Source: a virus | Virus genome (UHGV): UHGV-0159509 | Direction: 5' to 3' (one strand) | Length of the DNA stretch: 10,539 nt | Shown: positions 9-10,208 of the stretch, one piece after another | Numbering within the stretch: position 1 is the stretch's first letter | Layout of the letters: the number at the start of each line of letters is the position of its first letter | Position numbers and translations under genes: made by a program | Notes under the pieces: generated by a model | What the model saw: only the letters and a program-made list of their open reading frames with translations | What the model was told of the DNA's origin: nothing | Databases searched by the model: none

Positions 9-950
9 TCACCCCCTGAATCCTGCCGGGATCTGGCTGTAGTCCACGTTGTCGTAACTGGCTTTGAAGTACGGGTCTTCGCGTTTTTCGGTGTACGTGC
101 TGACGGACGGCGATAAGCGCAGGGAAAGCTCATCCCATTTTTCCCGCAGCTTCGACGGGCTGAGCACGTTACGGCACCAGAACGGATCGCGGCTGACGCG
201 GCTGTACATCTCGCAGATTTGTTTGTGAGTACGACCATCCTGCACACACATCAGGCGAATTTCGTTTGCCCAGGCTGTCCAGTTCGGTTCTTTGGGACGA
301 ACCACCTCGCCGTCACATTCGGCGGCCTGCTCGTACAGGGCGATGATTTTTTTCCAGAGCCACTGTGCGCAGGTCAAATCATCCTGCGTTCCCCACTGGC
401 GCTTTTTAGGGCTGAATACAACCGCATCAGGATGGCGAGTTAAAAAATCCTGTTCAGCCGTCTGCGTGTCCGGTTGCGAAGCGTCCGGACGAGAAGGTTT
501 TTTATCTGACGGATCATGTTTTGATTTTACTGACGGATCCCCGCCAGATTCTGACGGGTGAAAACCCGCTTTTTTGCCAGATTTCGACGCATCAAATTTT
601 GACGGGTCAGATTTTGATGCGTCAGATTTTGACGGGTCAGAATCTGACAGTTGAGAAAATGCCGCTGCCTGAAGCTTCGCAACGTTAAGCTGATAAACAT
701 TCGACGCATTGCGGTTACCCTGGCGACGCGCCTTACGCGTTAACCAGCCTTCTGCTTCCAGCCGTGCGATAGCCGTTCTGACGGTACTCATCCCCGCGCC
801 AATCTGGCGGGCAATGGTTTCAATTGATGGCCAGCACACACCTTCGTCATTACTGAAATCAGCCAGGCGGGCCATAATTGCCACGCTGGATAATTTCATG
901 CCTGATGCAGCGCAACCATCCCATACATAGCCGGTTAATTTAGTGCTCAT
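9..950 (-). CDS. Phage replication initiation protein (lambda O-like; N-terminal winged-HTH, repetitive acidic/Ser-rich linker, C-terminal domain)
   Basis: 313-aa ORF with ATG at 950 preceded on the minus strand by AGAGG. N-terminus (SVAIMARLADFSNDEGVCWPSIETIARQIGAGMSTVRTAIARLEAEGWL) looks like a winged-helix DNA-binding domain. A low-complexity linker (SDSDPSKSDASKSDPSKFDASKS) is encoded by iteron-like DNA repeats, as in lambda O where ori lies inside the gene. Position after cro/cII-like genes fits. The stop (TGA, 9-11) is followed 2 nt later by an ATG at 6-4 on the minus strand, so the next gene (P-like position) starts at 6 and runs off the window. Confidence 0.8.
   Translation of the reverse strand: MSTKLTGYVWDGCAASGMKLSSVAIMARLADFSNDEGVCWPSIETIARQIGAGMSTVRTAIARLEAEGWLTRKARRQGNRNASNVYQLNVAKLQAAAFSQLSDSDPSKSDASKSDPSKFDASKSGKKAGFHPSESGGDPSVKSKHDPSDKKPSRPDASQPDTQTAEQDFLTRHPDAVVFSPKKRQWGTQDDLTCAQWLWKKIIALYEQAAECDGEVVRPKEPNWTAWANEIRLMCVQDGRTHKQICEMYSRVSRDPFWCRNVLSPSKLREKWDELSLRLSPSVSTYTEKREDPYFKASYDNVDYSQIPAGFRG
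504..650. repeat. Iteron-like repeat array inside the replication gene (putative phage origin)
   Basis: Three tandem 15-bp units at 596-610, 611-625 and 626-640 (ATTTTGACGGGTCAG / ATTTTGATGCGTCAG / ATTTTGACGGGTCAG). Degenerate copies start near 504, 527, 548 and 580 (cTGACGGatc, cTGACGGatc, cTGACGGGTg, cGACGCATCa). Each unit has internal dyad symmetry (CTGAC...GTCAG), and the unit at 584-593 is the inverse of the one at 616-625. Confidence 0.55.
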
Positions 951-959
951 GACCGACCT

Positions 960-1298
960 CTATTTCCCTGAATTTACGACGAAACTGTTCGAGCGGGCTG
1001 AAGCACTCATGCTCATAGCCTTCGCGGAGGTAGATAACTCGTTGTGTTTCCGGCTCCCAACGAATGACTCTGACGGGCACTCCGTAGTGATCTTTGAACC
1101 AGCGGTTAACTTGTCGCAAAGGACTGTCTCCTTCTGCCGGTTGAAATCACCCACAGCCCACTCTGCAAAGCTGTGGGTTACAATTTCCCTGTCACCTGGT
1201 ACATTCACTGCATAGCAATACTCCACCTTCGCTTTTCCACCCGGTACAGGAAGCGCAATCAGTTGCGAGCGACGGTAGTGTGTTGTTAAACTGTTCAT
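960..1298 (-). CDS. Hypothetical protein (112 aa), translationally coupled to the upstream CII-family gene
   Basis: ATG at 1298-1296 overlaps the stop of the upstream gene (ATGA overlap). Stop TAG at 962-960 sits just before the SD of the replication gene. The C-terminal third is Ser/Ala-rich and low complexity, and a 90-aa ORF lies antisense (943..1215), so the coding assignment is uncertain. Confidence 0.5.
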
Positions 1299-1846
1299 GC
1301 GTTAGTTTCTCCACAGTCACGACACGCCACGGCGCCCGGAGCTGCACACTCGCGGGCGTCATTACTTTCTGAAATGCAAAAAATTTTGTAGACCAGTGCT
1401 GCATGCTCCTGCAGCTTCGAAATTGAGAGGTACAGCTCGTCGTTAATTGCTGTCTTCTCATGCGGTTCCACTACACCGTCTTCAATTGCTGAACGAATCT
1501 GTTTTGAATAACTGCCGATCTGTTCAATGACCTCCAGCAGGCGTTGGTTGATATCGGCGTTGTCCACATCCTCGACATCAGGAAGAGACACAAAGACGCC
1601 ATTTGCAGACTGCGCCACAGCGTCAGCAATGAAGTGAGTTCCACCAGCACGTTGCAAAATCATTGCCCATCCCAGCGGGAAAATCTGATCGCCATCGGCA
1701 CGAAGGCGGTTAAATAATGCGTTCTCTGTTACATCCAGCCAGTCAGCTGCTTCAGCGTAACCACCCGGCAACGCTGCGATAGTTTTTCTGACAGCTTTCA
1801 CGTACCACTCAGGCTGTTTTTCTACTTTCCAGTGATGCTTACCCAC
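1295..1846 (-). CDS. Phage regulatory protein, CII (CP76-type)/YdaT-like family
   Basis: 183-aa ORF with GTG start at 1846-1844 preceded by a strong SD (AGGAGG, 6-7 nt spacer) on the minus strand. It sits immediately downstream of the cro-like gene, the classic cII position. Family assignment is from memory of similar prophage proteins, not a search. Confidence 0.65.
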
Positions 1847-2099
1847 GGTTCACCTCCTGTTCCTGTGGTTTAAACCCATTCTGGTTTTGGCTAGATTGAA
1901 AACGTGCCGGATAAAGAATCTGCATTTCGCTGACTTCACCCTTAAAAAAATTGGCTAAACGTTCTGCAAGCTCGATAGATGGAATCTGCTCCAGCCTCTC
2001 AATACGACTCAACGTCGCTGGATTGACTTGAACACCCGCAGCAACATGCTGCAAAGTGAAACCATGCGCCTTACGCACATTTCGTAATGGTGATTGCAT
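1839..2099 (-). CDS. Cro-like HTH (XRE-family) transcriptional regulator
   Basis: 86-aa ORF with ATG at 2099-2097 and SD GGAGG 5 nt upstream on the minus strand. HTH segment FTLQHVAAGVQVNPATLSRIERLEQIPSIELAERLANF. Divergent from the CI-like repressor across an operator-rich intergenic region. Confidence 0.8.
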   Translation of the reverse strand: MQSPLRNVRKAHGFTLQHVAAGVQVNPATLSRIERLEQIPSIELAERLANFFKGEVSEMQILYPARFQSSQNQNGFKPQEQEVNRG

Positions 2100-2196: not shown

Positions 2197-2889
2197 ATGA
2201 ACATAGGAAACCGAGTCAGACAACTTCGCCAAGCGAAGAACATGAAAATCGCCGATCTCGCTGAAGCGATAGGAGTAGATGCGGCGAACATCTCGCGCTT
2301 AGAAACGGGTAAGCAAAAACAATTTACCGAACAAACACTGAGTAATATTGCCAAGAGCTTAGGTGTTGATATTGCTGATCTCTTTACCTCTGCCCACAAA
2401 AGTAATACTGTATATAAAAACAGTAATAATGAGGATGTTGCGCAGGTGAAGGATGTGTTCCGTATTGAAATGCTGGATATCAGTGCCAGTGCGGGAAATG
2501 GCCTTATCCAGGGCGGTGATGTCATTGATGTGATTCATGCCATCGAATACAGAACTGATAATGCTGTATCAATGTTCGGCGGACGACCAGCCAATCACAT
2601 CAAAGTTATCAACGTTCGTGGGGACAGTATGTGTCCAACCATTGAGCCAGGAGATCTCATCTTCGTTGATGTCAGCATCAATCAGTTTGATGGTGATGGT
2701 ATATATGTCTTTGGTTTTGATGACAAAATATACGTTAAAAGACTTCAAATGATTCCTGACAAACTGCTGGTGATTTCTGATAACCAGATTTACCGTGAAT
2801 GGGGAATTACTAGCGAAAACGAACACCGATTCATGGTCTTTGGAAAGGTCTTAATCAGTCAGTCGCAAACCCTTAAGAGACATAATTAA
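2197..2889 (+). CDS. CI-like prophage repressor (N-terminal HTH, C-terminal S24/LexA-like autopeptidase domain)
   Basis: 230-aa ORF. N-terminal HTH (MKIADLAEAIGVDAANISRLETGK). C-terminal S24 peptidase signature GDSMCPT (Ser nucleophile) with downstream Lys (VKRL). Candidate Ala-Gly autocleavage site in DISASAGNG. No SD upstream of the ATG. Confidence 0.9.
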   Translation: MNIGNRVRQLRQAKNMKIADLAEAIGVDAANISRLETGKQKQFTEQTLSNIAKSLGVDIADLFTSAHKSNTVYKNSNNEDVAQVKDVFRIEMLDISASAGNGLIQGGDVIDVIHAIEYRTDNAVSMFGGRPANHIKVINVRGDSMCPTIEPGDLIFVDVSINQFDGDGIYVFGFDDKIYVKRLQMIPDKLLVISDNQIYREWGITSENEHRFMVFGKVLISQSQTLKRHN

Positions 2890-2909
2890 CCTCAATATCC
2901 CATCCATCG

Positions 2910-2933
2910 GCCACCGAAAGGTGGCTTTTTATT
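2910..2933 (+). terminator. Rho-independent terminator downstream of the repressor gene
   Basis: Perfect 6-bp GC-rich stem GCCACC/GGTGGC (2910-2915 with 2920-2925) closed by a GAAA tetraloop, followed by TTTTT (2926-2930). Confidence 0.8.
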
Positions 2934-2939
2934 ACCCAC

Positions 2940-2995
2940 CATTTTGCATATTTCGCAAATATTACTTGCATATCTCGCAATTTAATTTTATCTTT
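2940..2995 (+). promoter_or_regulatory. Putative OL/PL-like operator-promoter (second cluster of CGCAA motifs)
   Basis: ATTTCGCAAATAT (2950-2962) and ATCTCGCAATTTA (2972-2984) resemble the CGCAA half-sites of the cI/cro intergenic region. TTGCAT -35-like hexamers at 2944-2949 and 2966-2971, with AT-rich -10 candidates around 2983-2994. Confidence 0.4.
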
Positions 2996-3143
2996 TGTTC
3001 CAGACCAACTACAGGATTACAACAAAATCTGGTTGCAACACGGTGCATGTGTCGTAAGCAGTCAGTAAATGTCAAAAACGAACAGGCAGGACGCCCACGA
3101 AGTAGCCGCCTGGGGCATATGAAGTCCAGGATGATTCGTTAGC

Positions 3144-3170
3144 AACAAAAAAGCGCCCTACAGGACGCTT
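3144..3170 (-). terminator. Candidate intrinsic terminator for the minus-strand 144-aa gene
   Basis: Hairpin AGCGCC-CTACA-GGaCGCT (3152-3169, one bulge). On the minus strand it is followed directly by TTTTTTGTTG (complement of 3141-3150). Confidence 0.45.
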
Positions 3171-3184
3171 AGCTCTTTAACAAT
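3152..3184 (+). promoter_or_regulatory. Antiterminator-like site: hairpin followed by rrn-type boxA (GCTCTTTAACAAT)
   Basis: 3172-3184 GCTCTTTAACAAT matches the E. coli rrn boxA core as I recall it (TGCTCTTTAACAA). It is preceded by the 3152-3169 hairpin in the boxB-then-boxA order seen in rrn leaders, and lies between the putative PL and the first plus-strand ORF. Confidence 0.45.
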
Positions 3185-3228
3185 CTGGTCCCCATCAACA
3201 AGTAACTGATAACTTGAGGAGATGTGAA

Positions 3229-3435
3229 ATGCACAAAACAGAACCCAAAATCGTCGCGCCTGGCTACACAGATGAGGAAATTTATGAGTGGATGACAAAG
3301 AAGCTGGCAGCTATAAACCAGCTTCGTGAAGTGCTGTCTTATCGACAGGAAACAATAGACTCCTTAAAAAAACTGGATCAGGAAATCACGGTTTTATCAC
3401 AGGATGTTACTTTAGATATTGTGCAGACAAATTAG
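3229..3435 (+). CDS. Hypothetical small protein (68 aa, predicted helical/coiled-coil)
   Basis: ATG at 3229 with SD GAGGA (3216-3220, 8-nt spacer). AT-rich codon usage. The 3' end overlaps the convergent 144-aa gene by 29 nt. No recognisable family. Confidence 0.5.
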   Translation: MHKTEPKIVAPGYTDEEIYEWMTKKLAAINQLREVLSYRQETIDSLKKLDQEITVLSQDVTLDIVQTN

Positions 3436-3841
3436 GATCCCATTCATTTTCGTCAAAATCATCAAAGTGATGAATTTGTGATCTCCAGTCTCGATAATCT
3501 AAAAATTTCTGGGCGGTTACGCTTATTTTATCAAGTGTGAGTTCATCCTGAATTGAAAGAAGAAGTTCATCAAATTTCATCTCATTAATCTGTTTTGGCA
3601 TCCAGTGATGCTTCATCAGAATAAGGTGAACCAGAGCCTTTTTCCCATTCAACTGATTATAGGGAGTGCCGAATTTCTTCCGGTGCTCATGTAAGACAAG
3701 GTCCAAAAGAGTAAGTAATGTTGCCCTTGATTCAACTTTGCTTATTTCGACTGATGACACTACCCCACTGATTTCAATGCCCCGATACTTTCCAACATTT
3801 TCACAGTGGGATTTGTACAGCGTATAGATATTACCGGACAT
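3407..3841 (-). CDS. Hypothetical protein (144 aa), AT-rich accessory gene in the immunity region
   Basis: ATG at 3841-3839 with SD AAGGAAAAG upstream on the minus strand. A long ORF in AT-rich DNA, where stop codons are frequent. No transmembrane stretch and no recognisable domain. Opposite in orientation to the flanking early-left genes. Confidence 0.65.
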   Translation of the reverse strand: MSGNIYTLYKSHCENVGKYRGIEISGVVSSVEISKVESRATLLTLLDLVLHEHRKKFGTPYNQLNGKKALVHLILMKHHWMPKQINEMKFDELLLSIQDELTLDKISVTAQKFLDYRDWRSQIHHFDDFDENEWDPNLSAQYLK

Positions 3842-3856
3842 TTCTTTTCCTTTTGC

Positions 3857-3908
3857 GTTGTTGGGGATAACCAGATTAACCGAATCCTTGTTGTTGGGGA
3901 ATAACCAG
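3857..3908. repeat. Two direct repeats GTTGTTGGGGA(A)TAACCAG upstream of the 144-aa gene
   Basis: R1 at 3857-3874 (18 nt) and R2 at 3890-3908 (19 nt, one extra A), 33-bp period, 16 nt from the start codon of the minus-strand gene. Confidence 0.6.
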
Positions 3909-4127
3909 GTCCACCTCGCCTGATGTGGCTAAAAGCAGGCACATAACAGCTAAGTATTTTCAACCAGAGAGAATCCTTAGCGTTGTGGTGAATGCGGCTC
4001 AGCGCACGCGGGTTAAGGTTGAGGCTGACAGTCGACCTTCTGTGGATACCCACCCGCCTGGTGTGCAACCTTCGCCAGGCACCGGGAGGCACCCGGCACC
4101 ACAACTTTATGCTGTGTGTAGTCCTGG

Positions 4128-4172
4128 CGGTACCAGTTTGTACCCTTGCTTCCGGCTGGTACCGTCCTTTTT
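4128..4172 (+). terminator. Terminator-like hairpin inside the structured island
   Basis: 9-bp perfect stem CGGTACCAG/CTGGTACCG (4128-4136 with 4156-4164), 19-nt loop, followed by TCC then TTTTT (4168-4172). Confidence 0.45.
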
Positions 4173-4261
4173 ACAAAACAGAGAAGAGCATCACCGGACG
4201 ACGGGCTCATAACCCAATCCATCCGGGCGGCTGCCACCGCAGGTGTTCTTCTCTGTTTTGT
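4173..4261. repeat. Long inverted repeat (18-bp stem, 53-nt spacer) just upstream of the first early-left gene
   Basis: 4173-4190 ACAAAACAGAGAAGAGCA pairs with 4244-4261 TGTTCTTCTCTGTTTTGT: 17 Watson-Crick pairs plus one G-U in RNA. The GC-rich interior (4191-4243) has further CCGG/CCGGG pairing potential. Confidence 0.6.
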
Positions 4262-4309
4262 GGAGAAACCAACCGACCTTGCAGGGTCGATATGATGAGG
4301 AGCAGCAAA

Positions 4310-4672
4310 ATGGCTAGCGAACGCAGTACTGATGTGCAGGCATTTATCGGGGAGCTGGACGGCGGCGTATTTGAAACCAAAATCGGCGCAGTTCTCAGTG
4401 AAGTCGCTTCCGGTGTGATGAACACGAAAACCAAAGGTAAGGTCTCACTCAACCTGGAAATCGAACCATTTGATGAGAACCGTGTGAAAATCAAACACAA
4501 ACTCTCATATGTTCGCCCGACTAACCGCGGGAAAATTTCCGAAGAAGACACCACCGAAACGCCGATGTATGTCAATCGCGGTGGTCGCCTGACTATTCTG
4601 CAGGAAGACCAGGGACAATTACTGACTCTTGCCGGTGAACCTGACGGAAAACTCCGCGCAGCAGGTCATTAA
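4310..4672 (+). CDS. Hypothetical prophage early protein (120 aa; YfdP-like by size and position)
   Basis: ATG at 4310 with SD GAGGAG (8-nt spacer). The upstream in-frame extension to 3992 is GC-rich nonsense. Size and position upstream of the YfdQ-like gene match my memory of CPS-53 yfdP; unverified. Confidence 0.75.
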   Translation: MASERSTDVQAFIGELDGGVFETKIGAVLSEVASGVMNTKTKGKVSLNLEIEPFDENRVKIKHKLSYVRPTNRGKISEEDTTETPMYVNRGGRLTILQEDQGQLLTLAGEPDGKLRAAGH

Positions 4673-4737: not shown

Positions 4738-5562
4738 ATGTCTCAGAACTTAGACGCAACCGCAATTAATCAAATCCATGCCCTTATTTCTGCTCAGGGT
4801 GTTAATGAAATTATCAGTAAGATTGGTGCCGATGCTGTGGCATTGCCTGAGAATTTCCGCATTCATGATCTGGAAAAATTTAATTTAAATCGCTTCCGTT
4901 TCCGTGGTGCGCTTTCCACTGCCAGCATCGATGACTTTACCCGTTATTCTAAAGATCTTGCAGATGAAGGCACCCGCTGCTTTATCGATGCTGATAATAT
5001 GCGTGCCGTCAGTGTGCTTAACCTGGGTACTATTGATGAACCAGGTCACGCAGATAACACCGCCACTCTCAAACTGAAAAAGACAGCACCGTTCTCTGCT
5101 CTGTTGTCTGTTAACGGCGAGCGTAACTCCCAGAAGTCACTGGCAGAATGGATTGAAGACTGGGCCGACTACCTTGTGGGCTTTGATGCTAATGGTGACG
5201 CCATTCAGGCAACAAAAGCGGCTGCGGCAGTCCGTAAAATCACGATTGAAGCAAACCAGACCGCTGATTTTGAAGATAATGACTTCAGCGGCAAACGCTC
5301 CCTGATGGAGTCTGTCGAAGCGAAGACCAAAGACATTATGCCAGTGGCATTTGAATTTAAATGCGTTCCGTTTGAAGGTCTGAAAGAACGTCCGTTTAAA
5401 TTACGCCTCAGCATTATCACTGGCGATCGTCCTGTACTGGTTCTGCGCATTATTCAGCTGGAAGCGGTGCAGGAAGAAATGGCTAACGAATTTCGTGATC
5501 TGCTTGTTGAGAAATTCAAAGACAGCAAAGTAGAAACCTTTATTGGTACTTTCACCGCCTGA
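4738..5562 (+). CDS. yfdQ: YfdQ-like (DUF2303 family) prophage protein
   Basis: 274-aa ORF with ATG at 4738 and SD GTGAGGA. Length and position immediately before an HD-domain YfdR-like gene match the CPS-53 yfdQ-yfdR arrangement as I recall it. Family assignment from memory, not a search. Confidence 0.7.
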
Positions 5563-5600: not shown

Positions 5601-5689
5601 AAACGTAATTAACTCAATAATCACCGGATGGTGAGGGCTTCCTTTTACCAGAATTCAGCGCGGTGCAGCGCATATACGTGGAGAACAAA

Positions 5690-6226
5690 ATGTCATTTAT
5701 TAAAACTTTTTCCGGGAAGCATTTTTATTATGACAGGATAAATAAAGACGACATCGTTATTAACGATATCGCGGTTTCCCTTTCAAATATCTGTCGCTTT
5801 GCAGGACATCTTTCACACTTCTACAGCGTCGCCCAACATGCGGTGCTTTGCAGCCAGCTGGTGCCGCAGGAATTTGCTTTTGAAGCGTTAATGCATGATG
5901 CAACAGAAGCGTATTGCCAGGACATCCCCGCACCACTGAAACGCCTTCTTCCTGACTATAAACGGATGGAAGAAAAAATAGACGCCGTAATCCGTGAGAA
6001 ATACGGGTTACCCCCAGTTATGAGTACGCCCGTGAAATATGCCGATCTCATCATGCTGGCAACCGAACGCCGCGATCTCGGGCTTGATGATGGCTCTTTC
6101 TGGCCTGTACTGGAAGGTATCCCGGCAACAGAGATGTTCAAAGTGATTCCACTGGCACCGGGCCATGCCTACGGGATGTTTATGGAACGTTTTAACGAGT
6201 TATCGGAGTTACGCAAATGCGCATGA
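5690..6226 (+). CDS. yfdR: HD-domain phosphohydrolase, YfdR-like 5'-deoxynucleotidase
   Basis: 178 aa from ATG 5690 with SD GGAGA (5-nt spacer). HD-domain motifs H...H (VAQHAVLCSQ) and HD (LMHDATEAY) plus a downstream Asp (YADLIM). Size matches E. coli YfdR (178 aa) as I recall it. Confidence 0.8.
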   Translation: MSFIKTFSGKHFYYDRINKDDIVINDIAVSLSNICRFAGHLSHFYSVAQHAVLCSQLVPQEFAFEALMHDATEAYCQDIPAPLKRLLPDYKRMEEKIDAVIREKYGLPPVMSTPVKYADLIMLATERRDLGLDDGSFWPVLEGIPATEMFKVIPLAPGHAYGMFMERFNELSELRKCA

Positions 6227-9219: not shown

Positions 9220-9639
9220 TTACTCATCATCAATAGATGATACGCAATATTTATTTTTAAATTTAAGGTTCTTTGGCGTAACTTCATCAGATATATCAAA
9301 ACCGTCCAGAATTCTATTGAATGTAGCTTCTGGCATATCATCATGAACGGAAATCTCACCCGATCGCTGCTTTCTAACCATGTTATCCACTCGCCAAATT
9401 ATAGCTTCAGCGTAAACAACATAACTTGGATGCTTGATAAAGCGATGATCACCAGAATTCAAGACGCAAGACGGATCGTGGGGGACACCATCCTTGATAC
9501 TAGAAATATTAACAACTAAAACACAATAACAATCGTTAACGGGGTAATAAACAGGATCATTACAAATCACATGAAGATGATTGCATGGCCCAGTTGGGGC
9601 AAGCACAGTTCCTTTCCTGTATGGCTGATAATCCGTCAT
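9220..9639 (-). CDS. Hypothetical protein (139 aa), candidate toxin/effector partner of the Panacea-domain protein
   Basis: ATG at 9639-9637 overlaps the upstream gene's stop by 4 nt (ATGA). Soluble, Cys/His-containing (GPCNHLHVICNDPVYYPVNDCYC... DH ... VHDD), AT-rich. No recognisable family. Confidence 0.65.
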   Translation of the reverse strand: MTDYQPYRKGTVLAPTGPCNHLHVICNDPVYYPVNDCYCVLVVNISSIKDGVPHDPSCVLNSGDHRFIKHPSYVVYAEAIIWRVDNMVRKQRSGEISVHDDMPEATFNRILDGFDISDEVTPKNLKFKNKYCVSSIDDE

Positions 9640-10208
9640 GATAATTGCAAAGAAAATTCCTTAAGTTTCTGAGATTCTTCCATTTTGCCAATTATGCGAT
9701 TAGCCTCATCCTCGCTTTTACCCTCACTGATCAGCATTTCTTTCAGGTCTATAGGCTTACGAGAATTGCCAGGATCGTGCCACTCTGGACAAACGCTTTC
9801 TAAATGCGTCATATTTGCGAGATCAAATCGGTTCATATGCCCATACAGAGAATAGATTTCATCTAAAATCCGGATATCTGCACGGCTCAACTCATCAAAG
9901 ACCTCGTCTGCATCCATTTCCCTCGGATCTGAACGCAACAACACATCATGCCCGTTCGTCTCTATCAGGTTGTACCAGTAGTCACCAATACCTTCAGCCT
10001 TACCACGAATCAAGTTCAGCGTATTCGACATGACTGGACCAAATTTCATAGAGTAAAGGCTATCTTCGCCGATCATCCTGCCATGCTTCAAAATCGACTG
10101 GCGGTTAGACAGATAGAGCAACTTCATCAATTTCAGATATGCCATGCGCCCACCTCGCTTAAGAAGTAGGTATGCAGCCATTTGAGCTACTTTTTCTTCG
10201 CAAAACAT
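9636..10208 (-). CDS. Panacea (DUF4065/SocA-like) domain protein, putative antitoxin PanA
   Basis: 190 aa with ATG at 10208-10206 and SD GAGG on the minus strand. The N-terminal region (VAQMAAYLLLKRGGRMAYLKLMKLLYLSNRQSILKHGRMIGEDSLYSMKFGPVMSNTL) follows the conserved DUF4065/Panacea pattern as I recall it. First gene of a two-gene overlapping cassette. Confidence 0.75.
   Translation of the reverse strand: MFCEEKVAQMAAYLLLKRGGRMAYLKLMKLLYLSNRQSILKHGRMIGEDSLYSMKFGPVMSNTLNLIRGKAEGIGDYWYNLIETNGHDVLLRSDPREMDADEVFDELSRADIRILDEIYSLYGHMNRFDLANMTHLESVCPEWHDPGNSRKPIDLKEMLISEGKSEDEANRIIGKMEESQKLKEFSLQLS

What the first reader, a model, noticed from the sequence alone, without database searches (positions are those of the whole stretch)
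3229..3841. AT-rich convergent gene pair inserted between the repressor gene and the early-left operon (rexAB-equivalent hotspot)
In lambda the slot just downstream of cI carries rexA/rexB exclusion genes, and in many lambdoid phages this slot holds lysogen-expressed defence cargo. Here it is occupied by a 144-aa minus-strand ORF with a good SD and a 68-aa plus-strand ORF with a good SD. Their 3' ends overlap by 29 nt. Both are much AT-richer than the neighbouring genes and neither resembles a known family. The 144-aa gene is oriented against the putative PL transcript, so it would be expressed in the lysogen when PL is repressed and could be silenced by head-on transcription during lytic growth.
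Basis: inference. Interest (0 to 1): 0.65.

Follow-up and report, generated by a model that had tools for sequence, protein, structure and literature searches.

The report
Conserved head-to-head prophage gene pair
The two overlapping, oppositely oriented genes are real and travel together as a two-gene cassette in many temperate phages of enteric bacteria, always just downstream of a lytic promoter. The layout suggests a prophage-expressed protein paired with a lytic-phase partner, but neither function has been tested.

Summary
Both ORFs are real at the stated coordinates: 68 aa at 3229-3435 (+) and 144 aa at 3407-3841 (-), overlapping by 29 nt.

Neither is family-less. The 144-aa protein belongs to NCBIfam NF033230 (ECs1072 family) and phrog_5286. 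The 68-aa protein is in the same family as YdfC of the K-12 Qin prophage (phrog_1744). All three families have unknown function.

The pair is not in a rexAB-type slot. The OL operators and PL sit directly after the cI terminator (2944-2994), so the pair lies inside the PL transcript. The order is PL, hairpin plus boxA, small ORF, antisense big ORF, STnc100-like RNA, yfdP. Lambda's N/sieB has the same geometry.

The main result is linkage. Relatives of the big protein at 22-72% identity keep a convergent small partner with a 29-113 nt 3' overlap in 13 of 14 diverse loci, and in 156 of 159 IMG/VR loci that had room for a partner. The pair occupies two slots: after cI/PL, or between Q and the holin. 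The second is the slot type that holds stx2 in phage 933W. YdfC also occurs alone (0 of 80 loci paired).

A confident structure model (pLDDT 92) has no fold relative.

Best reading, by inference: the big protein is a prophage-expressed effector and the small protein is its antidote made during lytic growth, with convergent transcription coupling the two. Function is untested.

The parts
2197..2889 (+). cI-type repressor gene (context)
   Evidence: ORF. Annotated as an XRE-family / CI repressor in identical E. coli and SfII records.
2909..2926 (+). cI terminator
   Evidence: GGCCACCGAAAGGTGGCT followed by TTTTTATT.
2944..2994 (+). OL operators (2944-2958, 2966-2980) and putative PL (-35 TTGCAT at 2966-2971, -10 TATCTT at 2989-2994)
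   Evidence: TTGCATATnTCGCAA occurs twice here, with related copies in the cro-cI intergenic region: 6 matches against 1.6 expected. The promoter was read from the sequence. SfV has TTGACA..CATAAT in the same place.
3074..3140 (+). Conserved PL leader; left edge of the mosaic block
   Evidence: 97% identical in SfV, whose immunity region differs. Homology to the window starts at 3069-3078 in most of 80 IMG/VR loci.
3141..3910 (.). Variable cassette of the hotspot; holds the gene pair
   Evidence: Replaced by unrelated sequence in SfV and SfII, between conserved flanks.
3151..3183 (+). Hairpin (3151-3170) followed directly by a boxA-like GCTCTTTAACAA (3172-3183). On the minus strand the hairpin reads as a terminator with a T-run.
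   Evidence: 0.05 matches expected by chance. The same hairpin plus CGCTCTTTAACAATC lies between PL and the small ORF in L005, L091 and L097.
3229..3435 (+). 68-aa YdfC-family gene (phrog_1744), co-directional with PL
   Evidence: Family HMM hit at 2.1e-28.
3300..3325 (-). Terminator-like hairpin for the big gene's transcript, embedded in the small ORF
   Evidence: GAAGCTGG..CCAGCTTC followed by TTTGTC, 81-107 nt after the big gene's stop codon. Comparable embedded hairpins occur in 8 of 14 loci.
3407..3841 (-). 144-aa ECs1072-family gene (NF033230, phrog_5286), antisense to the PL transcript
   Evidence: Structure model with pLDDT 92.3.
3857..3908 (.). Direct repeats GTTGTTGGGGATAACCAG (3857-3874) and GTTGTTGGGGAATAACCAG (3890-3908), upstream of the big gene
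   Evidence: Read from the sequence. Function unknown.
3911..3928 (.). Conserved CCAC..TCAGGC..GTGG hairpin element at the right edge of the cassette. In relatives it is followed by an extended -10-like TGGTATCTT about 35 nt before the antisense gene's ATG.
   Evidence: Present upstream of the antisense gene in L091, L092, L096, L097 and L008, and upstream of the unrelated antisense ORFs of SfV and SfII. In the window the -10 part is altered.
3952..4174 (+). STnc100-like structured RNA ending in a terminator hairpin
   Evidence: Rfam RF02076, 43.1 bits against a gathering score of 47, E 8.8e-7. True STnc100 occupies the same relative position in L100, L102 and 933W.
4310..4672 (+). yfdP; the early-left operon continues (context)
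   Evidence: Annotation; phrog_204.

Best explanation
The two ORFs form a conserved, mobile two-gene cassette.

Shown here:
- The 144-aa ECs1072-family gene is a self-contained unit transcribed against the phage's lytic operon. Its terminator-like hairpin lies inside the partner ORF.
- The 68-aa YdfC-family gene is the first sizeable ORF of the lytic transcript (PL here, PR' in other phages).
- The genes converge and their 3' ends overlap, so the two mRNAs are complementary at their 3' ends and the two polymerases must collide.

Inferred:
- While PL is repressed in the lysogen, only the big gene is expressed. Its soluble all-alpha protein acts as a prophage-benefit effector, most likely excluding or aborting other phages.
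- On induction or infection, strong lytic transcription makes the small protein and shuts off the big gene by head-on transcription and antisense pairing.
- The small protein then neutralises the big protein that is already present, so the phage's own lytic cycle escapes.
- Stand-alone small genes such as YdfC in Qin-type phages would then be counter-defence genes.
For: - Linkage across divergence. The big-family and small-family HMMs co-occur, convergent and overlapping by 29-113 nt, in 13 of 14 diverse loci from E. coli, E. albertii, Erwinia, Serratia, Edwardsiella, Xenorhabdus, Citrobacter, Klebsiella and Salmonella ST64B.
- The linkage holds from both directions. Loci retrieved with the small protein all carry the big partner.
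- Larger samples agree: 77 of 80 IMG/VR loci of the ST64B type and 79 of 79 of the window type are paired.
- The pair has moved between two slots with its geometry intact: after cI/PL, and between Q and the holin.
- The small gene always runs with the lytic transcript. In L092 it starts about 40 nt after an operator-flanked promoter.
- Terminator-like hairpins for the big gene lie inside the small ORF in 8 of 14 loci. Almost none follow the small gene in its own direction.
- The dependence is asymmetric. The big gene is almost never alone, whereas the YdfC clade is alone in 80 of 80 loci.
- YdfC is not toxic. Inducing the dicBF operon with dicF and dicB deleted still expresses ydfABC and does not inhibit growth (PMC5069750).
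- ECs1072 mRNA appears among the significantly regulated genes in a growth-phase study of O157 Sakai (PMC2241611).
- Lambda has the same geometry with a proven exclusion gene: PL, nutL, N, then convergent sieB.
Against: - No experiment bears on either protein's function.
- No consensus sigma-70 promoter was found upstream of the big gene in the window. The extended -10-like element seen in relatives is altered here.
- In the late slot the small gene may lie in a constitutively transcribed PR' leader, which weakens the 'off in the lysogen' step.
- One locus (L004) has the big gene without a partner.
- The E. albertii small ORF is frameshifted at an A7 run after codon 48.
- Binding between the two proteins was not tested.
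Confidence: 0.4

Rival explanations
1. The two genes are functionally independent and linked only by the architecture of the slot. The small gene is an ordinary early or late lytic gene with its own role. The big gene is a separate moron that uses the 3' part of the small gene as its terminator region. They travel together because the cassette recombines as a block.
For: - YdfC occurs alone in 80 of 80 Qin-type loci, and the big gene occurs alone in L004.
- Other cassettes in the same slot also hold a forward ORF with a convergent antisense ORF, from unrelated families: SfV orf33 with an 81-aa ORF, and SfII with SfII_36. The geometry may therefore belong to the slot rather than to these proteins.
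- Between the window and E. albertii the small ORF is about 96% identical in DNA but the big gene is only 72% identical in protein. The two halves can recombine separately.
Against: The pairing and the 3' overlap persist down to 22-35% identity of the big protein and through relocation between the PL and PR' slots. That is hard to keep without selection on the pair.
Confidence: 0.2
2. The pair is a toxin-antitoxin-like addiction module. The big protein is a stable toxin and the small protein or its mRNA is the antitoxin. The overlapping convergent transcripts would supply type I-like RNA control that stabilises the prophage.
For: - A two-gene unit with complementary 3' ends.
- The big gene is nearly always accompanied, while the small gene can be an orphan.
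- The small family is not toxic.
Against: - In the PL slot the presumed antitoxin sits behind a repressor-controlled promoter. It would be off exactly when the toxin is made.
- No toxin or antitoxin domain was detected.
- Type II pairs are co-directional operons; this pair is convergent.
- The big protein shows no membrane or nuclease signature.
Confidence: 0.15
3. The pair is a regulatory device for the lytic operon. Antisense transcription of the big gene, perhaps with its protein, damps leaky PL or PR' read-through into the STnc100 element and downstream genes. The small protein would be an early modulator such as an anti-repressor or a host take-over factor.
For: - The pair always lies in the promoter-proximal leader, between a lytic promoter and a structured RNA or terminator.
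- A conserved hairpin plus boxA precedes the small ORF.
- A conserved promoter-like element is shared by different antisense genes in the slot.
Against: - The big protein is strongly conserved as a protein: dN/dS 0.23, 76 cluster representatives, a confident fold. Transcription alone does not explain it.
- Both proteins are acidic and lack a recognisable DNA- or RNA-binding fold.
Confidence: 0.15
4. One reading: both genes are lysogen-expressed defence cargo in a rexAB-equivalent slot between cI and PL.
For: The position is a hotspot next to cI and is AT-richer than the window average.
Against: - The operators and PL lie upstream of the pair.
- The small gene belongs to the PL transcript.
- There is no similarity to RexA/B or to any PADLOC model.
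Confidence: 0.05

Closest known systems
Lambda / P22 sieB (superinfection exclusion), convergent with gene N in the PL operon
   Same: Same geometry. In lambda the order is PL, nutL, N (complement 35037-35438), then sieB on the opposite strand (34482-35036), abutting N tail-to-tail. SieB is a gene antisense to the early-left transcript that acts from the prophage. From memory, P22 escapes its own SieB through a cognate Esc product.
   Different: - No sequence relationship (hhalign probability 0.3%).
- From memory, SieB is a larger membrane protein. The 144-aa protein is soluble and all-alpha.
- The forward partner here is not an N-type antiterminator.
- This pair overlaps at its 3' ends and also occurs in the late operon.
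Lambda rexA/rexB
   Same: Prophage cargo next to the repressor gene.
   Different: - rexAB lies between cI and OL/PL, on the cI strand, and is co-transcribed from PRM. The pair here is downstream of PL.
- One member of the pair is antisense and the other is PL-driven.
- No homology.
YdfC of the Qin prophage dicBF operon (ydfA-ydfB-ydfC-dicF-dicB-ydfD)
   Same: - The 68-aa protein is a family member: about 40% identity and the same PHROG 1744.
- The position is the same: a promoter-proximal gene of the repressor-controlled early-left operon, followed by a structured sRNA region (PMC5069750).
   Different: Qin-type phages have no ECs1072-family partner (0 of 80 loci), and the downstream sRNA is DicF rather than STnc100-like. 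The function of YdfC is unknown.
Prophage defence with cognate self-immunity (for example BstA and its aba element in Salmonella phage BTP1; from memory)
   Same: The proposed logic is the same: a prophage-expressed factor near the repressor gene blocks other phages, and the phage carries its own means of escaping it during lytic growth.
   Different: From memory, BstA self-immunity is a DNA element rather than a protein. There is no homology (PADLOC negative). Defence activity is not shown here.
The stx2 cargo slot of Stx phages (PR', stx2AB, STnc100, ..., holin)
   Same: In 933W, STnc100 (207.7 bits) lies 75 nt after stxB2, in the late-transcript direction. In Klebsiella phage KPP5665-2 and in L100 the gene pair sits between Q and STnc100. 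In the window it sits between PL and an STnc100-like RNA.
   Different: The cargo differs: a toxin operon co-directional with the late transcript, against a sense/antisense gene pair.

Membership tests
NCBIfam NF033230, ECs1072 family phage-associated protein | Full-length HMM score above the curated cut-off (70 bits) | tested here: met
   157.8 bits, E 1.7e-46, residues 4-144 against profile 2-142. PGAP names identical copies this way.
YdfC family / phrog_1744 | Sequence similarity over the full length to YdfC of Qin-type phages | tested here: met
   tblastn about 40% identity over 66 of 68 residues, E 2e-9. Both proteins hit phrog_1744, at 6e-35 and 1.6e-39.
Lambda rexAB-type lysogenic cargo | Located between cI and OL/PL on the cI strand, so that it is co-transcribed with cI | tested here: not met
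   The cI terminator is at 2909-2926, the operators at 2944-2980, and the putative PL at 2966-2994. All are upstream of the pair. Lambda layout.
Lambda rexAB-type lysogenic cargo | Homology to RexA or RexB | tested here: not met
   No Pfam or PADLOC hit.
sieB-type exclusion gene | Antisense to the PL operon and convergent with the first PL gene | tested here: met
   Window layout compared with lambda N/sieB.
sieB-type exclusion gene | Sequence similarity to SieB | tested here: not met
   hhalign probability 0.3%.
sieB-type exclusion gene | Excludes or aborts superinfecting phage | not testable with these tools
   Requires plating assays.
Type II toxin-antitoxin | Co-directional two-gene operon with a recognised toxin or antitoxin domain | tested here: not met
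   The genes are convergent. No domain hit in Pfam, NCBIfam or PADLOC.
Known anti-phage defence systems (PADLOC-DB 2.0) | HMM match to a catalogued defence protein | tested here: not met
   0 families for either protein at E up to 1.
Moron (independent transcription unit inserted in a phage operon) | Own terminator | tested here: met
   Minus-strand terminator-like hairpins at 3325..3300 and 3170..3151.
Moron (independent transcription unit inserted in a phage operon) | Own promoter | tested here: inconclusive
   No consensus hit in the window. A conserved TT(T/C)ACC-17-TATCTT element with a TG extension occurs in relatives but is altered in the window.
Moron (independent transcription unit inserted in a phage operon) | Presence or absence between otherwise conserved flanks, with a deviant base composition | tested here: met
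   Cassette 3141-3910 is swapped in SfV and SfII. The pair is 39.3% GC against 46.8% for the window.
Rfam RF02076 STnc100 (for 3952-4174) | Covariance-model score at or above the gathering threshold (47 bits) | tested here: not met
   43.1 bits, E 8.8e-7, full-length match. The near-identical copy in L005 scores 46.2. Best treated as a divergent relative.

The most novel reading that the evidence does not exclude
The ECs1072-family and YdfC-family genes are a previously unrecognised kind of prophage system. The effector has a new fold, is made in the lysogen and blocks other phages. The protein antidote is encoded convergently and made only from lytic transcripts, with head-on transcription acting as the switch. 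Orphan antidotes, including the K-12 y-gene ydfC, would be counter-defence genes carried by rival phages.
Probability: 0.25. Interest if true: 0.75.

Novelty: new variant of a known kind. Interest (0 to 1): 0.6.

Why it matters
- It gives two 'hypothetical' phage families a testable functional link. One of them includes the uncharacterised E. coli K-12 gene ydfC.
- The pair sits in the same kind of promoter-proximal cargo slot, bounded by an STnc100-type RNA, that carries Shiga toxin genes.
- If the effector-and-antidote model holds, it adds a defence and self-immunity design based on convergent overlapping genes and a fold with no solved relative.
- It also shows that public phage records, including ST64B, Klebsiella phage KPP5665-2 and SfV, miss the antisense gene in this slot.

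Tried and rejected
- I first suspected that the STnc100-like RNA was the transcription-termination immunity RNA described for SfV (Roberts et al. 2007, recalled from memory; the paper is not held). Rejected: the C4 and isrK RNAs of SfV lie inside orf37 in the PR operon (L002 317-505).
- I considered the small ORF as an N-type antiterminator because it follows a boxA. Rejected: it is acidic (pI 4.8), has no arginine-rich motif, shows no similarity to N, and also occurs after Q/PR'.
- I considered a HEPN-like Rx4-6H motif in the big protein (K/R67...H72). Position 67 is not conserved and no HEPN fold match appeared.
- The afdb50 fold library was unavailable.
- The genome-contig scan yielded only 3 loci.
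- Literature searches for ECs1072, the protein accessions and YdfC found no functional study.
- The 31-codon Arg-rich reading frame at 3047-3142 has no conserved start codon in SfV, so I treated it as leader RNA and not as a gene.

Full report
**1. The observation**

The window is the immunity and early region of an SfV/SfII/SfIV-type lambdoid prophage of E. coli. It reads:
- a replication gene at 9-950 (-)
- a CII-like gene at 1295-1846 (-)
- cro at 1839-2099 (-)
- cI at 2197-2889 (+)
- rightward early-left genes: yfdP at 4310-4672, DUF2303/yfdQ at 4738-5562, and an HD hydrolase at 5663-6226.

The 68-aa ORF is at 3229-3435 (+), with GAGGAG 7 nt before its ATG. The 144-aa ORF is at 3407-3841 (-), with AAGGAAAAGAA before its ATG. 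Their 3' ends overlap by 29 nt.

The pair is 39.3% GC. cI is 42.0%, the window 46.8%, yfdP 50.1% and the RNA element to the right 56.1%. The AT-richness is therefore real but modest on the cI side.

**2. Both ORFs are real genes in catalogued families**

- The 144-aa protein matches NCBIfam NF033230, 'ECs1072 family phage-associated protein' (157.8 bits against a cut-off of 70), and phrog_5286.
- The 68-aa protein matches phrog_1744. It is about 40% identical to YdfC of Qin-type phages, and YdfC hits the same PHROG.
- All of these families have unknown function. Pfam and PADLOC found nothing.
- The big gene is under purifying selection: dN/dS is 0.23 against the 72%-identical E. albertii copy.
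- The small ORF is intact in 17 of the 18 DNA alleles found across the fetched loci; the exception is the frameshifted L005 copy.
- An exhaustive HMMER search found 76 cluster representatives of the big family. Nearly all are 145-155 aa. H72 and W134 are invariant, and L50, R54, L64, G66, A69 and W80 are nearly so.

**3. Where the pair sits**

That is not what the sequence shows.
- The cI terminator is at 2909-2926.
- It is followed at once by two 15-mers, TTGCATATnTCGCAA, at 2944-2958 and 2966-2980. Relatives of this motif lie in the cro-cI intergenic region (6 matches against 1.6 expected).
- A TTGCAT-17-TATCTT promoter pointing rightward overlaps the second 15-mer.
- SfV has a consensus TTGACA..CATAAT in the same place after its own cI terminator.

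So OL and PL precede the pair, and the pair lies inside the early-left transcript.

Downstream of PL come:
- a 67-nt conserved leader (3074-3140)
- a hairpin (3151-3170) followed directly by GCTCTTTAACAA (3172-3183). From my own knowledge this is a 12/13 match to the rrn boxA. Chance gives 0.05 matches.

The same hairpin plus CGCTCTTTAACAATC lies between PL and the small ORF in E. albertii, in an unnamed locus (L091) and in Edwardsiella.

After the pair comes a 223-nt STnc100-like RNA (3952-4174) ending in a terminator hairpin. It scores 43.1 bits against a gathering score of 47, with E 8.8e-7. Then yfdP follows.

**4. It is a hotspot**

- blastn against SfV and SfII shows conserved flanks (3074-3140, and 3911 onward) around a swapped middle (3141-3910).
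- The alternative cassettes also hold a forward ORF converging on an antisense ORF, but from unrelated families. SfV has orf33 (phrog_3195) with an unannotated 81-aa ORF (phrog_3311). SfII has a short forward ORF with SfII_36 (phrog_2605).
- Among 80 IMG/VR loci carrying the identical big gene, homology to the window starts at 3069-3078 in most. These loci therefore have different repressors. In about 25 loci it ends near 4254-4294. The leader, cassette and STnc100-like RNA thus move as one mosaic block.
- About 401 of 5426 complete E. coli genomes carry the block nearly intact.

**5. The key finding: a conserved pair**

I fetched distant relatives of the big protein (22-72% identity) and looked at their neighbourhoods. 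Each of these loci carries a 65-97 aa ORF converging on the big gene with overlapping 3' ends:
- L005 (E. albertii)
- L090
- L091
- L092/L093 (Erwinia)
- L008 (Serratia)
- L094/L095
- L096

The small ORFs share the N-terminal motif EP-x-h-h-A/N-x-x-h-T/S-x-E-E-L-x-x-W-M/L, followed by a helical tail.

Searching in the other direction gave the same result. Starting from small-family members in Edwardsiella, Citrobacter, Xenorhabdus and Klebsiella, every locus has a 146-149 aa convergent partner.

HMMs of both families, run over all ORFs, confirm the pairing.
- The big family is present in 14 diverse loci, and the small partner in 13 of them, with overlaps of 29-113 nt. L004 is the exception.
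- ST64B and Klebsiella phage KPP5665-2 also carry the pair, although their records do not annotate the big gene.
- In larger IMG/VR samples, 77 of 80 ST64B-type loci and 79 of 79 window-type loci are paired. In contrast, 0 of 80 loci retrieved with Qin/Tritos YdfC have a big-family gene. That last set is nearly clonal.

**6. Two slots, one geometry**

The pair occurs in two places:
- just after cI/PL: window, L005, L090, L091, L092, L097, L099
- between the Q antiterminator and the holin: L008, L094/95, L098, L100, ST64B, KPP5665-2.

In both places the small gene runs with the lytic transcript and the big gene runs against it.

In Erwinia L092 the small ORF starts about 40 nt after a TTGACC-17-TAGATT promoter flanked by palindromic operators. 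There it is the first PL gene and is under direct repressor control.

Terminator-like hairpins for the big gene lie inside the small ORF in 8 of 14 loci; in the window this hairpin is at 3325..3300. Hardly any terminators follow the small gene in its own direction. The big gene is therefore a discrete unit, and the small gene is part of a long operon.

True STnc100 lies just beyond the pair, in the lytic direction, in late-slot loci: 108 bits in L102 and 69 bits in L100. In Stx2 phage 933W, STnc100 (207.7 bits) lies 75 nt after stxB2 (also PMC12370729). The pair thus occupies the same kind of slot, 'lytic promoter, cargo, STnc100', that holds stx2.

**7. Upstream of the antisense gene**

Relatives share the element TT(T/C)ACC-ACCTCAGGCGGCAGTGG-TATCTTGG about 35 nt before the ATG. 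This contains an extended -10-like TGgTATCTT. The same element precedes the unrelated antisense ORFs of SfV and SfII.

In the window the hairpin part survives (3911-3928). The -10 part is altered, and an 18-19 nt repeat is duplicated (3857-3874 and 3890-3908). The promoter scan found nothing there. The big gene's promoter in this lineage therefore remains unproven.

The only expression evidence I found is indirect. ECs1072 is listed among the significantly regulated genes in a growth-phase study of O157 Sakai (PMC2241611).

**8. The proteins**

- With a 41-sequence alignment, AlphaFold2 gives a confident all-alpha model of the big protein: pLDDT 92.3, pTM 0.86, seven helices.
- Foldseek against BFVD and an HMM search of PDB sequences found nothing.
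- Both proteins are soluble and mildly acidic. Median pI is 5.9 for the big family and 5.0-5.1 for the small one.
- YdfC appears non-toxic. Inducing the dicBF operon with dicF and dicB deleted still expresses ydfABC and relieves growth inhibition (PMC5069750).

**9. Mechanism**

*Shown:*
- The pair is a conserved, mobile, convergent and overlapping two-gene cassette in promoter-proximal cargo slots.
- The big gene is antisense to the lytic transcript and has its own terminator-like hairpins.
- The small gene belongs to the lytic transcript.
- The big gene is almost never found without the small one, whereas the small one can stand alone.

*Inferred:*
- In the lysogen the big protein is made.
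- On induction or infection, the lytic promoter produces the small protein and silences the big gene by head-on transcription and by pairing of the 3' ends.
- The small protein neutralises the big protein already present.
- The asymmetric dependence is what one expects of an effector with an antidote. Orphan antidotes such as YdfC would then be counter-measures carried by other phages.

The nearest worked example by position is lambda: PL, nutL, N, then a convergent sieB. There is no sequence relationship to either SieB or N.

I put this model at 0.4. The rivals are:
- independent genes linked by slot architecture, 0.2
- a toxin-antitoxin-like addiction module, 0.15
- a regulatory device for read-through, 0.15

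**10. Verdict**

- The claim that the genes have no family is also wrong.
- The antisense orientation and the hotspot idea are right.
- The pairing itself has no functional study that I could find. It rests on comparative evidence only.

Noticed in passing
window 3151-3183; L097 2730-2765; L091 about 4864; L005 about 1370: A conserved hairpin followed directly by an rrn-type boxA (CGCTCTTTAACAATC) lies in the PL leader, in hairpin-then-boxA order. No N-like gene is present. This suggests an antitermination site of a kind not described for these phages. On the opposite strand the hairpin reads as a terminator with a T-run.
   Followed up: partly
window 3952-4174; L102 2028-2223; L100 4897-5078; L103 (933W) 2278-2483: STnc100-type RNAs mark the distal edge of cargo slots downstream of both PL and PR', including the stx2 slot of 933W. 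There the antisense sRNA AsxR abuts its 3' end (2485-2537). The window copy scores just below Rfam's gathering threshold.
   Followed up: partly
window 3857-3928; L091, L092, L096, L097, L008; SfV L002 about 3055-3110; SfII L003 about 3210-3265: A conserved CCAC..TCAGGC..GTGG hairpin plus TATCTTGG element precedes antisense genes of at least three unrelated families in this slot. In the window the -10-like part is replaced and an 18-19 nt unit, GTTGTTGGGGA(A)TAACCAG, is duplicated.
   Followed up: partly
L101 (ST64B) 2747-2756, and other late-slot loci: The palindrome TGGGATCCCA encodes W-D-P on both strands. On one strand it is the invariant ..EWDP.. near the big protein's C-terminus. On the other it is ..FPWDPSP.. 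in the small protein's tail. In the window the small ORF stops (TAG at 3433-3435) just before this palindrome.
   Followed up: partly
L101 (ST64B) 2345-2779; L102 (KPP5665-2) 2318-2791; L002 (SfV) 2809-3054: Public phage records do not annotate the antisense gene in this slot. This applies to the ECs1072-family genes of ST64B and KPP5665-2 and to an 81-aa phrog_3311 gene of SfV.
   Followed up: yes
window 3373-3379 (A7 run in the small ORF); L005 about 1165-1175: The E. albertii copy, and a minority of E. coli protein clusters (69-72% coverage at about 100% identity), change frame after codon 48 at the A7 run. This gives a different C-terminal tail. It could be a sequencing error or real length variation.
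   Followed up: partly
window 9220-10208 (-): This is an AT-rich two-gene unit on the minus strand. A SocA/Panacea-domain protein (9636-10208, Pfam 2.3e-18) overlaps by 4 nt a 139-aa ORF with no family (9220-9639). It looks like a Panacea-antitoxin plus toxin pair near the right end of the window.
   Followed up: partly
window 527-709 (inside the replication gene 9-950): Tandem CAAAATCTGAC-type repeats produce a spurious mir-5880 hit and repetitive 'QNLT' translations in both strands. They are probably origin iterons inside the O-like replication gene.
   Followed up: no
L002 (SfV) 317-505; L005 3464-3652: C4 antisense RNA (82 bits) and isrK (64 bits) lie inside the 'immunity region' / Phage_ASH gene of the PR operon in SfV and in the E. 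albertii prophage. The window has no such hit.
   Followed up: no
L097 3712-5267; L098 1424-2832: Extra antisense cargo sits next to the pair in some loci. Edwardsiella has a KAP-NTPase-like gene plus a 170-aa gene. Citrobacter and L095 have DUF6731 plus a 159-aa gene. This fits a defence-type hotspot.
   Followed up: no
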